Positions 1 through 3,000 of a DNA stretch of 64,000 nt are shown piece after piece. Source of the DNA: Escherichia coli (lineage in GTDB: Bacteria; Pseudomonadota; Gammaproteobacteria; Enterobacterales; Enterobacteriaceae); the NCBI RefSeq assembly GCF_003790525.1, contig NZ_CP033635.1. One strand, 5' to 3'. Each line of letters opens with the position of its first letter. The stretch's first letter is position 1. A program made the position numbers.

Positions 1-3000
1 CATCCGGGTTTTGTAGATCGTGTTGGATTAATCCATTGGTGAGATCAAGTGAACGTGTTTGCGGATCGAGGCAATAACCTTTCTCGGTGATGGTTAATGA
101 AACGATTTTTACCTGAGGTTCAGCCAGTTTATGGATTGCTGCGGCAATGCCATCTCTGGGGGTATGAATACCGCCAGCCACCGAACGCACAAGGCGTGAG
201 GTAGATTGCGATGCAGATGTTTCCACAACCGAAAACAGCCCATTTTGCGCATTTAAGTTTTCGATCAGTTGAGCATCACCAAACAGGTTGATCTCAAAGA
301 TCCCCCAGCGGGTGTCCGAAAGTTGATTAGTGAGATCCGTGTAGACAGCCTGGTGTCCGCGATGAAAAGCGCCAAAACCAATATGGACAATATCTGCCTG
401 TAACCCGTCCCGAGGCCAGGTGGTTACCTGATCATAGTGGGCGGCAGCGATACTTTCGTTCCCTGACATTATGCTCTTACTCCTGGTGGCTTGTGTGTAT
501 ACCAATTTACATAATTCACTAGACCAAAAACAGAGAGATGCATCACGCTTGCAGAGAAAGGTAAAAGTACGAAACAGAACAACAAGGCGTTATTTATATC
601 TGTATCAATGAGTTATATGAATAAAATGAAAGGAAAGTTTTTTAGAGGTCAGTTTTTGGGATAATTGCCGCTAATCTAAGATATCTGATGATAGTCGATT
701 TATTAGACCAATTGAAAAGAGAGCGTGTACCAGTGGAGGGCGGAAGGCAGAGCCGGCGTTATTTTTCCCGCCAGCTCTGGACTAATGAAGGTTAACGAGC
801 GAAGAAAAAGTCATCAAAATCGCTGATGGAAGCGTCTTGTTTGAAGATTTTGATCAGTTCATTTTTGCTGTTTTCCAGATGTCTCCAGGATGCTTCCCTG
901 GCGAGCTCTGAATCTTTCTGTTGTAGCGCAAGGAAAATAGCCCGGTGATCTTCCAGCCATTGCAGACGCAAATGCTTTTCATGCAGGTACTTGTAGTTAA
1001 GTTTCTTCCAGCGGGGGTTTTCTGTACGAACTGCCCGCCATAATTCAGCAGCTTGTTTGATGAGTACCCGATTTTGCGTCGCTTCGGCAATAATGCTATG
1101 AAATCGGTGATCCAGGTCTTCAAATTTATCACTTTCCGCAGCGATAGCGTTTTCCTGCAATCTAATGATTTTCTTTAACTCTTGTAACTCGTTAAAGCTA
1201 ATCTGGCTGGCTGCAAAACCAGTAATATTGCTCTCAATCACCTGACGCGCCTGCAACAGTTCAAACGGGCCAATTTCTGAATAGGGCATTAATGATTTCT
1301 GGTTGAGCTTATCGGTGGAGTCGACAAAGAAAATCCCTGACCCTTGCTTCACATTCAATACGCCTTTCAGTTCCAGCATAATGATGGCTTCACGAATGGT
1401 AGTTCGGCTGGTATTAAACCGCTCGCTCAGTTCACGTTCTGAAGGTAAGCGTTCTCCGGCCTTAAATACGCCTGAATACAGCAGCTCTTCAATCTGTAGA
1501 CCAATATCGTAATAGCGGCGCTTTGTAATAACCTGTTCCATACCTTGCCTTACTGTGGGTGTCCTCGGATAGCCGATCGTCGTGCAATATGATTTGAACG
1601 TTGCTGATCGGCATAAATAGTAGCGGCAGTTGCCACGATACCGCCAGCCTTAAATGTGCTTGCCCAAGTCGGGCAGTGAAAAACCTCACCAGGGTATTTC
1701 GCCACCGTTCATCAACATCACTTCATTTCCGCGCGTGATACAGCGTATAATCCCCGGCCTTTGATTATTTTTTTATCATTTCTGGAAGCAAAATGAGCTC
1801 TATCTCCCTGATCCAACCGGATCGCGACCTGTTCTCCTGGCCGCAGTACTGGGCCGCCTGTTTTGGACCGGCACCGTTTTTGCCGATGTCACGTGAAGAG
1901 ATGGATCAACTTGGCTGGGATAGCTGCGACATCATTTTGGTTACTGGCGACGCGTATGTCGATCACCCAAGCTTCGGGATGGCGATTTGCGGTCGTATGC
2001 TGGAAGCGCAGGGCTTTCGCGTCGGGATCATCGCCCAGCCAGACTGGAGCAGCAAAGACGACTTTATGCGTCTGGGTAAACCGAATCTGTTTTTCGGCGT
2101 TACTGCTGGCAACATGGACTCGATGATCAACCGCTATACCGCCGATCGCCGTTTACGTCATGACGATGCCTACACGCCAGATAATGTCGCGGGTAAGCGT
2201 CCGGATCGCGCCACACTGGTTTATACCCAACGTTGTAAAGAGGCGTGGAAAGATGTGCCGGTGATCCTCGGCGGTATTGAGGCCAGCCTGCGCCGTACCG
2301 CGCATTATGATTACTGGTCCGATACCGTGCGCCGTTCCGTGTTGGTGGATTCGAAAGCCGACATGCTGATGTTTGGTAACGGTGAGCGTCCGCTGGTGGA
2401 AGTGGCGCACCGTCTGGCGATGGGCGAGCCGATTAGTGAAATCCGCGATGTGCGTAATACCGCGATTATCGTAAAAGAGGCGTTGCCAGGCTGGAGCGGC
2501 GTGGATTCCACCCGTCTTGATACCCCAGGGAAAATCGACCCAATCCCGCATCCGTATGGCGAAGATTTGCCGTGCGCGGATAACAAACCGGTAGCTCCGA
2601 AAAAGCAGGAAGCCAAAGCTGTAACCGTGCAGCCACCACGCCCGAAACCGTGGGAAAAAACCTACGTGTTGCTGCCTTCTTTCGAGAAAGTGAAGGGCGA
2701 TAAAGTGCTGTACGCCCATGCTTCGCGCATTCTGCACCACGAAACTAACCCAGGCTGCGCCCGCGCATTGATGCAAAAACATGGCGACCGCTATGTATGG
2801 ATCAACCCGCCTGCTATTCCGCTTTCTACCGAAGAGATGGATAGCGTCTTTGCGCTGCCGTACAAGCGCGTGCCGCATCCGGCTTACGGTAATGCCCGAA
2901 TTCCGGCTTACGAAATGATTCGTTTCTCGGTCAACATTATGCGTGGCTGCTTTGGCGGCTGCTCTTTCTGTTCTATTACCGAGCACGAAGGGCGCATTAT

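What the first reader, a model, noticed from the sequence alone, without database searches (positions are those of the whole stretch)
1..1541. UxuB-like dehydrogenase and UxuR-like GntR regulator upstream of ygiQ where ftsP is expected
In K-12, as I recall, ygiQ is followed directly by ftsP(sufI). Here the neighbour is a FadR-subfamily GntR regulator and a partial mannitol-dehydrogenase-family gene, so this looks like strain-specific accessory DNA, probably part of a sugar-acid utilisation module continuing beyond the window. The sequence gtgtgtataccaatttacat at about 493-512, just upstream of the dehydrogenase start, contains a GTATACCAATTT half-site like the UxuR/ExuR operator.
Basis: partly seen in the sequence, partly recalled or inferred. 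Interest (0 to 1): 0.5.

Follow-up and report, generated by a model that had tools for sequence, protein, structure and literature searches.

The report
Accessory sugar-acid operon beside ygiQ
The left end of the window is the regulator end of a 7.8-kb accessory sugar-acid uptake and conversion operon that about a fifth of E. coli strains carry between ygiQ and ftsP; the region is already catalogued, but its enzymes, regulator and substrate have not been tested.

Summary
Window 1-469 (-) is the start of a 490-aa mannitol-dehydrogenase-family gene. Window 792-1541 (-) is a 249-aa FadR-type GntR regulator. K-12 has only a 110-bp ftsP-ygiQ spacer at this position. The pair is one end of a 7.8-kb, low-GC region present in 1204 of 5426 complete E. 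coli genomes, including CFT073 and SMS-3-5. Its gene order is regulator, mannitol-DH-family gene, Zn-alcohol dehydrogenase (56% to LgoD), Ldh_2-family dehydrogenase, then a TRAP transporter. The TRAP binding protein is 83% identical to Salmonella STM3169, a tested D-glucuronate binder, and keeps all seven ligand residues. The regulator is a paralogue of UxuR and ExuR (38% identity, all four zinc ligands kept), not an orthologue.

It is the promoter-proximal member of a TTGGT-N17-TTGGT pair next to a CRP-like box. That arrangement is conserved upstream of the dehydrogenase genes in all eight related loci examined, except that the CRP-like box was not found in Vibrio.

In Vibrio, Budvicia and one E. 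coli strain the same three dehydrogenases sit beside an intact 3,6-anhydro-L-galactonate cycloisomerase gene (a pseudogene in Salmonella Kentucky). This suggests an L-to-D hexonate conversion, but the substrate is unproven. The region is published as "GR 21". Interest is modest.

The parts
1..469 (-). 5' part (codons 1-156 of 490) of the mannitol-dehydrogenase-family gene, the first gene of the operon; it runs off the left end of the window
   Evidence: Translation. Full gene in SMS-3-5 and CFT073. 49% identity to UxuB and YdfI. NCBIfam fructuronate reductase subfamily 506 bits, below the 603 cut-off. Best solved relative is YdfI, PDB 4im7.
480..484 (-). Shine-Dalgarno AGGAG, 10 nt before the ATG at 469-467
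   Evidence: Read directly from the sequence.
491..508 (-). Proximal operator P1, AAATTGGTATACACACAA: a degenerate TTGGT-NN-AC.AA palindrome.
   Evidence: Unique in the window. TTGGT is invariant and AC nearly so across Escherichia species, K. spallanzanii, Salmonella Kentucky, Budvicia and E. coli RM9088. Same half-site as in the K-12 uxu/exu regulatory spacers.
504..509 (-). Predicted -10 element TAAATT, overlapping P1 (inferred)
   Evidence: It lies at the same offset from the P2 half-site in E. coli, K. spallanzanii and Salmonella. The generic sigma-70 scan found no full promoter, as expected for an activator-dependent promoter.
501..527 (-). TTGGT-N17-TTGGT operator pair (P2 + P1), half-sites 22 bp apart start to start
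   Evidence: One match in 64 kb against 0.19 expected. The same 22-bp phasing is found upstream of the orthologous dehydrogenase gene, or upstream of stm3169, in all eight related loci examined.
532..547 (-). CRP-like box CGTGATGCATCTCTCT, 4 nt upstream of P2; its centre is about 43 nt from the predicted transcription start (class II position; inferred)
   Evidence: The aligned boxes are better matches to TGTGA-N6-TCACA in K. spallanzanii (TGTGACTTCAATCACT), Salmonella stm3169 (TGTGAACCGAATCTCT) and Salmonella Kentucky (TGTGATCATATTCACG).
702..713 (-). Distal half-site AATTGGTCTAAT
   Evidence: Conserved in Escherichia species. K. spallanzanii and Salmonella have a distal pair of half-sites at the matching place.
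748..779 (-). 11-bp-stem hairpin just after the regulator stop codon; probable end of the regulator transcript (no T tract)
   Evidence: Inverted repeat I1; largely conserved among the Escherichia sequences in alignment A2.
792..1541 (-). 249-aa FadR-subfamily GntR regulator, a paralogue of UxuR and ExuR
   Evidence: ORF. NCBIfam UxuR 192.6 bits (cut-off 442) and ExuR 184.2 bits (cut-off 396). 38% identity to each. PF00392 + PF07729 on near-identical database proteins. The zinc ligands D144, H148, H199 and H221 align with UxuR D148, H152, H201 and H223 (PMC8092373).
1542..1743 (.). Island-specific spacer that must hold the regulator's own promoter. The right junction with K-12-type DNA is at about 1743-1744, 48 bp before the ygiQ ATG.
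   Evidence: Alignment with the K-12 ftsP-ygiQ spacer. Blocks are conserved between Escherichia and K. spallanzanii. It contains no TTGGT or ACCAA site.

Best explanation
Window 1-1541 is the regulatory end of a 7.8-kb chromosomal accessory operon that replaces the short ftsP-ygiQ spacer of K-12.

Shown:
- The gene order, all on the - strand, is regulator, 322-bp control region, mannitol-DH-family gene, Zn-alcohol dehydrogenase (start overlaps the previous stop by 4 nt), Ldh_2 dehydrogenase, then the TRAP binding protein and the small and large permeases.
- The binding protein is the orthologue of Salmonella STM3169, which binds D-glucuronate with a KD of about 0.2 uM.
- The regulator is a zinc-site-bearing paralogue of UxuR and ExuR.
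- The control region carries a conserved CRP-like box followed by two TTGGT half-sites 22 bp apart. The second half-site overlaps a -10-like TAAATT.

Inferred:
- Without inducer, regulator dimers occupy the two sites (and a distal site 184 bp upstream) and block RNA polymerase at a CRP-dependent promoter. A sugar-acid effector that coordinates the zinc releases the regulator.
- The transporter brings in a hexuronate-type sugar acid.
- The Zn-dehydrogenase oxidises C5 of an L-configured hexonate or 2-keto-3-deoxy-hexonate. The UxuB-like enzyme then reduces the 5-keto intermediate to the D-epimer (D-mannonate or KDG). That product enters the core UxuA/KdgK/Eda route.
- The step catalysed by the Ldh_2 enzyme is not assigned.
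For: Structure and distribution.

Families and identities.

TRAP transporter: 83% identity to stm3169 with no gaps, at the same ygiQ-ftsP site; the locus identity was checked against a published primer. Residues N35, Q36, E74, R150, R170, N210 and D237, named as ligand contacts in PMC7660916, are all kept. The nearest solved relatives include 4n91 and 4mhf, which PMC7660916 describes as D-glucuronate binders.

Regulator: nearest families are UxuR and ExuR, and the four zinc ligands shown by mutagenesis to matter in UxuR are conserved (PMC8092373).

Operator and promoter: unique in the window, conserved in a phylogenetic footprint, and found at the same 22-bp phasing with an adjacent CRP-like box in all the enterobacterial loci. 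Vibrio keeps the phasing and has a perfect TTGGTTGACCAA palindrome. The half-site is the one in the K-12 uxu/exu regulatory spacers.

C5-epimerising logic: the Zn enzyme is 56% identical to LgoD (L-galactonate 5-dehydrogenase) and the partner is 49% identical to fructuronate reductases. The same enzyme pair does this in the tested H. influenzae L-gulonate pathway (PMC5788505) and, as activities, in the L-KDGal to L-DDGal to KDG route (PMC5943477). The orthologous triad (60-84% identity) lies next to 3,6-anhydro-L-galactonate cycloisomerase in Budvicia, E. coli RM9088, Salmonella Kentucky (as a pseudogene) and Vibrio. In Vibrio it is divergent from a PfkB-family kinase (KdgK-like), an aldolase (Eda-like) and the cycloisomerase.
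Against: - No experiment has been done on the E. coli genes. PMC12928451 lists the region as uncharacterised.
- The tested ligand of the transporter's orthologue is D-glucuronate. That is not an L-hexonate, and core UxaC/UxuB/UxuA can already process it, so transporter and enzymes may not share a substrate.
- A C5 epimerisation needs two dehydrogenases, not three.
- The cycloisomerase that accompanies the triad elsewhere is absent here, with no remnant.
- The enteric sites are direct half-sites rather than the palindromes usual for FadR-type dimers.
- The promoter elements are weak and unmapped.
- In SMS-3-5, which is identical to the window over 1-1800, the TRAP small permease has a nonsense codon, so uptake may be dead in this lineage.
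Confidence: 0.65

Rival explanations
1. Pure hexuronate booster. The operon is a high-affinity D-glucuronate uptake system plus an extra fructuronate reductase. Glucuronate enters through the TRAP transporter, core UxaC isomerises it, the island's UxuB-like enzyme reduces fructuronate, and the regulator senses fructuronate or glucuronate as UxuR does. The Zn and Ldh_2 enzymes would be side activities.
For: STM3169 binds D-glucuronate at 0.17-0.25 uM and the binding residues are identical here (PMC7660916). The regulator's nearest families are UxuR and ExuR, and its operator half-site is theirs. Salmonella keeps the same operators in front of a TRAP-only operon.
Against: It leaves two of the three enzymes without a role. 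The three dehydrogenases form their own orthologous groups, distinct from UxuB, YdfI and LgoD. Elsewhere they travel without this transporter, beside a cycloisomerase and MFS carriers.
Confidence: 0.25
2. Lower pathway for 2-keto-3-deoxy-L-galactonate (L-KDGal), which arises from 3,6-anhydro-L-galactose of agar or from fungal galacturonate breakdown. The Zn enzyme makes 2,5-diketo-3-deoxy-L-galactonate and the UxuB-like enzyme reduces it to KDG. In this island the transporter would supply L-KDGal or a related acid by cross-feeding.
For: The orthologous triad lies beside a cycloisomerase that matches the solved 3,6-anhydro-L-galactonate cycloisomerase at E = 5e-200 (about three quarters of residues identical by eye). 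In Vibrio astriarenae it is divergent from a kinase-aldolase-cycloisomerase operon, and the regulator lies next to an agarase. The two activities needed are described in PMC5943477.
Against: This island lacks the cycloisomerase. STM3169 was not tested on L-KDGal, and its known ligand is D-glucuronate. The protein families of the published L-KDGal enzymes could not be compared with these.
Confidence: 0.3
3. L-gulonate or L-galactonate pathway of the H. influenzae Gul / E. coli Lgo type: TRAP uptake of the L-aldonate, 5-dehydrogenation to fructuronate or tagaturonate, then reduction to D-mannonate.
For: The architecture matches the tested Gul cluster: TRAP, Zn-dehydrogenase, UxuB and a UxuR-type regulator (PMC5788505). 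The Zn enzyme is 56% identical to LgoD.
Against: The binding protein is only distantly related to the L-gulonate binder 4PBQ (E = 1e-28, against 3e-68 for 4ovr, the best of its solved relatives; that top group includes 4n91 and 4mhf, which are glucuronate binders). E. coli already has LgoTRD and YdfJ/RspB/YdfI. The Ldh_2 enzyme is again unexplained.
Confidence: 0.2
4. Decaying remnant. The region is an ancestral Enterobacteriaceae locus that is being lost (already gone from K-12-type E. coli and reduced to the transporter in Salmonella) and is no longer functional in the strain of this window.
For: Nonsense codon in the small permease of SMS-3-5. Truncated dehydrogenase ORF in E. albertii. Cycloisomerase and MFS pseudogenes in related modules. 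Absent from 78% of E. coli genomes.
Against: All seven genes are intact in CFT073. More than 1000 genomes keep the region at 95-100% identity. The regulator, its zinc site and the operators are conserved across genera.
Confidence: 0.15

Closest known systems
Salmonella Typhimurium STM3169-STM3171 TRAP transporter (Herman et al. 2020, PMC7660916; Haneda et al. 2010, PMC3022708)
   Same: It occupies the same chromosomal site between ygiQ and ftsP. The binding protein is 83% identical with all seven named ligand residues kept. The promoter region carries the same CRP-like box and TTGGT pairs.
   Different: Salmonella has only the three transporter genes, with no regulator and no dehydrogenases. 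Its expression is reported to depend on ppGpp and SsrB. The E. coli genes are untested.
E. coli UxuR and ExuR repressors and their operators
   Same: GntR winged helix plus FCD domain, all four zinc ligands, the SRT.(V/I)REA recognition helix, and the AAATTGGT half-site. A 14-nt identity (TTATGTAAATTGGT) links the window site to a site in the gntP-uxuA spacer.
   Different: Only 38% identical and far below the NCBIfam equivalog cut-offs. It belongs to a separate orthologous group found in Klebsiella, Pseudocitrobacter, Salmonella Kentucky, Budvicia, Vibrio and Agarivorans. Its enteric sites are direct half-sites 22 bp apart rather than single palindromes. The effector is unknown.
Haemophilus influenzae L-gulonate cluster GulPQM-GulD-UxuB-UxuA-KdgK-KdgA-UxuR (Calhoun et al. 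2018, PMC5788505)
   Same: A TRAP transporter, a Zn-dependent sugar-acid 5-dehydrogenase, a UxuB-type reductase and a UxuR-type regulator in one cluster. The logic is conversion of an L-acid to a D-acid through a 5-keto intermediate.
   Different: The binding protein is not orthologous (4PBQ E = 1e-28). There is no UxuA, KdgK or KdgA in the island. The island has an extra Ldh_2 dehydrogenase.
E. coli LgoD (YjjN) and UxuB/YdfI
   Same: Same families. The Zn enzyme is 56% identical to LgoD, and the mannitol-DH-family enzyme is 49% identical to both UxuB and YdfI.
   Different: They form separate orthologous groups. Substrate specificity is untested.
3,6-Anhydro-L-galactose / L-KDGal catabolic clusters of agarolytic bacteria
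   Same: Orthologues of the regulator and of all three dehydrogenases lie beside 3,6-anhydro-L-galactonate cycloisomerase, a PfkB kinase and an aldolase in Vibrio astriarenae, and beside the cycloisomerase in Budvicia and E. coli RM9088.
   Different: The window's island has no cycloisomerase and has a TRAP carrier instead of an MFS carrier. The link between the triad and L-KDGal rests on gene context only.
E. coli yiaK-yiaL-yiaMNO (2,3-diketo-L-gulonate)
   Same: An Ldh_2-family dehydrogenase next to a DctPQM TRAP transporter. The permeases give weak NCBIfam matches to YiaM and YiaN.
   Different: The island's Ldh_2 enzyme scores far better against ureidoglycolate dehydrogenase AllD (340.7 bits) than against YiaK (125.8 bits), and is below both cut-offs.

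Membership tests
GntR family, FadR subfamily (FCD) | N-terminal winged-helix GntR domain plus C-terminal FCD domain | tested here: met
   PF00392 + PF07729 on database proteins 99% identical to the query. Full-length alignment to the UxuR, ExuR, LldR, PdhR, NanR and GlcC models.
GntR family, FadR subfamily (FCD) | Asp + three His metal site of the FCD domain | tested here: met
   D144, H148, H199 and H221 are invariant and align with UxuR D148, H152, H201 and H223 (residues from PMC8092373).
UxuR (NCBIfam NF007588 equivalog) | Score at or above the curated cut-off of 442 bits | tested here: not met
   192.6 bits; 38% identity.
ExuR (NCBIfam NF008571 equivalog) | Score at or above the curated cut-off of 396 bits | tested here: not met
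   184.2 bits; 38% identity.
UxuR/ExuR-type operator | AAATTGGT-NN(N)-ACCAATTT palindrome upstream of the regulated gene | tested here: inconclusive
   The left half and the GT-N2-AC core are present at P1 (AAATTGGTATACACACAA). The right half is degenerate, and P2 has only the left half. The Vibrio orthologous loci have full palindromes. Binding was not testable.
Mannitol dehydrogenase family / fructuronate reductase subfamily | Mannitol_dh N- and C-terminal domains; NCBIfam NF011611 cut-off of 603 bits | tested here: inconclusive
   Family membership is clear: PF01232 + PF08125 on orthologues and the solved relative YdfI 4im7 at E = 4e-141. The subfamily score of 506 bits is below the cut-off.
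DctP-type TRAP transporter | Binding protein, small permease and large permease encoded together; carboxylate-binding arginine in the binding protein | tested here: met
   NCBIfam TRAP_S1/dctP and dctM above their cut-offs. The small subunit has only a weak, sub-cut-off NCBIfam match to YiaM, and is identified by the RefSeq annotation and by PF04290 (DctQ) on the Salmonella orthologue. R170 is present. These genes lie outside the window, in the identical SMS-3-5 and CFT073 sequence.
STM3169 orthologue (D-glucuronate-binding protein) | High identity, the same locus, and conservation of N35, Q36, E74, R150, R170, N210 and D237 | tested here: met
   272 of 327 residues identical with no gaps. Same ygiQ-ftsP position. 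All seven residues are conserved. Ligand binding by the E. coli protein is not testable here.
H. influenzae Gul L-gulonate system | Binding protein orthologous to GulP (PDB 4PBQ) | tested here: not met
   4pbq E = 9.9e-29, ranked 57th of 60, against 3e-68 for 4ovr, the best hit.
3,6-Anhydro-L-galactose catabolic cluster | 3,6-Anhydro-L-galactonate cycloisomerase gene in the cluster | tested here: not met
   tblastn with the RM9088 cycloisomerase finds nothing in window 1-2000 or in K. spallanzanii, but does find a pseudogene in Salmonella Kentucky.
Mobile genomic island | Integrase or transposase, a tRNA or other att site, and flanking direct repeats | tested here: not met
   No such genes in the annotation. 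No flanking repeats. The left junction is exactly at the ftsP stop codon. Only the low GC content (41-49% against 53-55%) hints at foreign origin.

The most novel reading that the evidence does not exclude
The mannitol-DH-family / Zn-dehydrogenase / Ldh_2 triad and its UxuR-like regulator would be a so far undescribed lower pathway. It would turn 2-keto-3-deoxy-L-galactonate, the product of 3,6-anhydro-L-galactose from dietary agar, or related L-hexonates, into KDG in Vibrio and in Enterobacterales. ExPEC-type E. coli (B2, F) would have fused this pathway to the STM3169-type glucuronate transporter under one operator. The same operator would survive as an orphan in front of the Salmonella macrophage-survival gene stm3169, where UxuR or ExuR may have taken over.
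Probability: 0.3. Interest if true: 0.5.

Novelty: new member of a known kind. Interest (0 to 1): 0.3.

Why it matters
The region is a marker of extraintestinal pathogenic and related E. coli lineages. Its transporter is the orthologue of a Salmonella factor needed for survival in macrophages. Knowing its substrate and inducer would show which host- or diet-derived sugar acid these strains can use and K-12-type strains cannot. The conserved operator pair gives a concrete, testable handle: a footprint, a reporter and a regulon search. It also suggests how stm3169 may be wired into hexuronate control. The gene-context link to 3,6-anhydro-L-galactonate cycloisomerase offers candidate enzymes for the step after L-KDGal, which the papers I could read leave unsettled for Vibrio. 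None of this overturns current understanding. It is a gap-filling annotation problem.

Tried and rejected
- Classical mobile island: rejected. There is no integrase, tRNA or flanking repeat.
- Structured RNA in 1-4200: nothing in Rfam at E <= 0.1.
- Generic sigma-70 promoter scan: no hit in 400-1850, so the promoter model rests on the conserved CRP-like box and a weak -10.
- Autoregulation through the same motif: no TTGGT or ACCAA upstream of the regulator gene in E. coli. That spacer has other blocks conserved with K. spallanzanii.
- My recalled consensus GTATAC core for UxuR/ExuR sites: not borne out by the K-12 sequences, which have GTCAAC, GTTAAC and GTTGAC.
- Cycloisomerase remnant in the 322-bp spacer: none.
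- Suvorova et al. 2011 (UxuR/ExuR regulon) and Vetting et al. 2015 (TRAP ligands): neither is held in the library. The ligand statements for 4n91 and 4mhf come from PMC7660916. The ligands of the other top PDB hits rest on my memory only.
- Literature searches for a characterised role of the triad found nothing.
- The genome-contig scan with the single regulator protein returned only four loci. Wider contexts had to come from protein-identity look-ups instead.
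Full report
**What is in the window**

On the - strand, bases 469-1 encode the first 156 residues of a protein, and bases 1541-792 encode a 249-aa protein. ygiQ starts at 1793 on the + strand and is followed by yqhH, yqhG and dkgA. The quoted 20-mer is at 493-512 exactly as written.

**Is it accessory DNA?**

A megablast of window 1-1800 finds the stretch in 1204 of 5426 complete E. coli genomes. It is 100% identical in SMS-3-5 and many others, and 95-99% identical in 1027 genomes. The end of ftsP is present in 5425 genomes, but homology stops exactly at the ftsP stop codon in genomes that lack the region.

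K-12 MG1655 has ygiQ and ftsP 110 bp apart. The K-12 spacer rejoins the window at about position 1743, 48 bp before the ygiQ start. In SMS-3-5 and CFT073 the 7.8 kb between ftsP and ygiQ holds seven genes, all on the - strand in window orientation:

- TRAP large permease
- TRAP small permease
- TRAP binding protein
- an Ldh-family oxidoreductase
- a zinc-binding alcohol dehydrogenase
- the mannitol-dehydrogenase-family gene
- the regulator

The region is 41-49% G+C against 53-55% in its flanks. It has no integrase, tRNA or flanking repeats. A 2026 comparative paper lists it as "GR 21 ygiQ..ftsP", shared by APEC O1, IMT5155, RS218, IHE3034, 78-Pyelo, CFT073 and LF82, and calls its function uncharacterised (PMC12928451). 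The same arrangement at the same site occurs in E. albertii, E. whittamii and Klebsiella spallanzanii.

**The proteins**

- Regulator. It scores best against UxuR and ExuR but far below their curated cut-offs, and is 38% identical to each. The four residues that bind zinc in UxuR, whose mutation blocks induction there (PMC8092373), are invariant in an alignment with UxuR, ExuR and orthologues.
- Mannitol-DH-family dehydrogenase. It is 49% identical to UxuB and YdfI.
- Zn enzyme. It is 56% identical to LgoD, the L-galactonate 5-dehydrogenase, and 31% identical to RspB.
- Ldh_2 enzyme. It is nearest to ureidoglycolate dehydrogenase but below the cut-off.
- TRAP binding protein. It is 83% identical, without gaps, to the Salmonella protein encoded between ygiQ and ftsP. 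That gene ends with the published stm3169 primer sequence (PMC3022708). STM3169 binds D-glucuronate with a KD of 0.17-0.25 uM, and seven residues are named as contacts (PMC7660916). All seven are at the same positions in the E. coli protein.

**The operator**

Read in the direction of transcription, the 322-bp spacer ends with:

...CGTGATGCATCTCTCTgtttTTGGTctagtgaattatgtaaaTTGGTatacacacaagccaccAGGAGtaagagcataATG

An alignment with CFT073, E. whittamii, E. albertii and K. spallanzanii shows that TTTTTGGTCTA and TAAATTGGT are invariant while the surrounding spacer has diverged. TTGGT-N17-TTGGT and AAATTGGTNNAC each occur once in the 64-kb window, against 0.19 and 0.13 expected.

The same pair, always 22 bp start to start, lies 31-80 nt before the orthologous dehydrogenase gene in Salmonella Kentucky, Budvicia and E. 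coli RM9088. It lies 130-152 nt before stm3169 in Salmonella. In Vibrio astriarenae the first site is a perfect TTGGTTGACCAA. K. spallanzanii and Salmonella have a second, distal pair (22 and 23 bp apart), whereas E. coli has a single distal half-site.

In K-12, the gntP-uxuA, uxuB-uxuR and uxaC-exuT spacers, where UxuR/ExuR operators are expected, contain AAATTGGTCAACCAT, GTGGTTAACCAATTT, TTTGGTTGACCAG and CACACCAATTT. The GTATAC core is particular to the E. coli allele of this island.

A box resembling the CRP consensus TGTGA-N6-TCACA ends 4-5 nt before the first TTGGT in the enterobacterial loci compared. It is strongest in K. spallanzanii, Salmonella and Salmonella Kentucky. A -10-like hexamer (TAAATT, or CAGAAT/CAAAAT) overlaps the second site. 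Counting from these elements, the CRP-like box is centred about 43 nt before the expected start, which is the class II position. This promoter model is inference. The simple sigma-70 scan finds no self-sufficient promoter, which fits an activator-dependent one.

**What the enzymes may do**

Regulator orthologues occur at 75-87% identity in Pseudocitrobacter, Salmonella Kentucky, Budvicia and one E. coli strain, and at 50-66% in Vibrio, Agarivorans and Marinomonas. Their gene contexts are informative:

- Budvicia and E. coli RM9088 (1 of 5426 genomes): regulator, a divergent enolase-superfamily gene, the same three dehydrogenases, then an MFS carrier.
- Salmonella Kentucky: the same layout, with the enolase-superfamily gene decayed, plus a DUF386 gene.
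- Vibrio astriarenae: the triad is divergent from a PfkB kinase, an aldolase and the enolase-superfamily gene, and the regulator sits by an agarase.

The enolase-superfamily protein matches the solved 3,6-anhydro-L-galactonate cycloisomerase at E = 5e-200, with about three quarters of residues identical by eye.

Across all these loci the three dehydrogenases form their own orthologous groups: 59-78%, 68-84% and 75-83% identity among themselves, against 45-49% to UxuB/YdfI and 54-56% to LgoD.

The cycloisomerase product, L-KDGal, is reported to be converted to KDG by a 5-dehydrogenase and then a 5-reductase in Pseudoalteromonas atlantica (PMC5943477). The H. influenzae L-gulonate pathway uses a Zn 5-dehydrogenase and UxuB in the same way (PMC5788505).

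The most economical reading is that the Zn enzyme and the UxuB-like enzyme invert C5 of an L-configured acid through a 5-keto intermediate. Which acid is not established. The third dehydrogenase has no assigned step. This island lacks the cycloisomerase, and its transporter's orthologue binds D-glucuronate.

**History**

The Salmonella spacer keeps the CRP-like box and both operator pairs in front of a transporter-only operon. This is most simply explained by deletion of the regulator and dehydrogenase genes from an arrangement like the E. coli one. K-12-type E. coli then lost everything. The alternative is gain by recombination through the conserved flanks. I could not decide between the two.

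**Verdict**

The observation and the interpretation are both sound. The feature is an ordinary chromosomal accessory catabolic operon built from known families, already catalogued, with one component characterised in Salmonella. What this analysis adds:

- the conserved operator and promoter layout
- orphan copies of those operators at stm3169
- the gene-context link of the regulator and dehydrogenase triad to 3,6-anhydro-L-galactonate metabolism

In the SMS-3-5 sequence, which is identical to the window over 1-1800, the small permease carries a stop codon. Transport may therefore be inactive in this particular lineage.

Noticed in passing
L001:15383-15865 (SMS-3-5; outside the window, about 4.1 kb to its left): The TRAP small-permease gene has a nonsense codon at residue 29 (W29 to stop) in SMS-3-5, the genome identical to the window over 1-1800. 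The CFT073 copy is intact. The transporter may be inactive in this lineage.
   Followed up: partly
L015:7514-8000 (Salmonella enterica, spacer between ygiQ and stm3169): The promoter region of the macrophage-survival gene stm3169 keeps the CRP-like box and both TTGGT pairs of the E. coli island. Salmonella has no regulator or dehydrogenase genes at this site, so these are orphan operators, possibly served by UxuR or ExuR.
   Followed up: partly
L016:10001-17329 = L018 (E. coli RM9088, between gyrB and yidB): A second, rare version of the module (1 of 5426 complete genomes). It has a 3,6-anhydro-L-galactonate cycloisomerase gene (E = 5e-200 to PDB 5xd7) and an MFS transporter pseudogene in place of the TRAP genes.
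   Followed up: yes
L012:10001-16100 (Salmonella Kentucky, between speA and speB): A third location of the regulator-plus-triad module. Here the cycloisomerase is decayed (internal deletion and frame breaks), and a DUF386 gene and a hydrolase follow.
   Followed up: partly
L005:7358-8611 (E. albertii NBRC 107761): The mannitol-DH-family ORF ends after 417 codons instead of 490. This is either a pseudogene or a draft-assembly error.
   Followed up: no
window 497-510 (-) and L008:2345-2358 (K-12 gntP-uxuA spacer): A 14-nt identity, TTATGTAAATTGGT, between the island's proximal operator and a site in the K-12 gntP-uxuA spacer, where a UxuR operator is expected. The site is in the opposite orientation relative to the nearest gene there.
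   Followed up: no
window 748-779: An 11-bp-stem hairpin (CAGAGCTGGCG-N10-CGCCGGCTCTG on the - strand) directly after the regulator stop codon, without a T tract. It is largely conserved among the Escherichia sequences.
   Followed up: no
window 1600-1640 (-): A block conserved between Escherichia and K. spallanzanii upstream of the regulator gene (TTTAAGGCTGGCGGTATCGTGGCAACTGCCGCTACTATT). It is unrelated to the TTGGT motif and may hold the regulator's own promoter or another control site.
   Followed up: no
L001:1-9143 and L003:1-4543: Further differences from K-12 to the left of the island. SMS-3-5 and CFT073 have no mqsRA between ygiS and ygiV. SMS-3-5 has an iron-siderophore ABC transporter plus a MurR/RpiR regulator next to ygiN, at the place PMC12928451 calls 'GR 22 ygiN..parE'.
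   Followed up: no
summary: One of the 1207 matching places for window 1-1800 is on a record typed as a plasmid.
   Followed up: no
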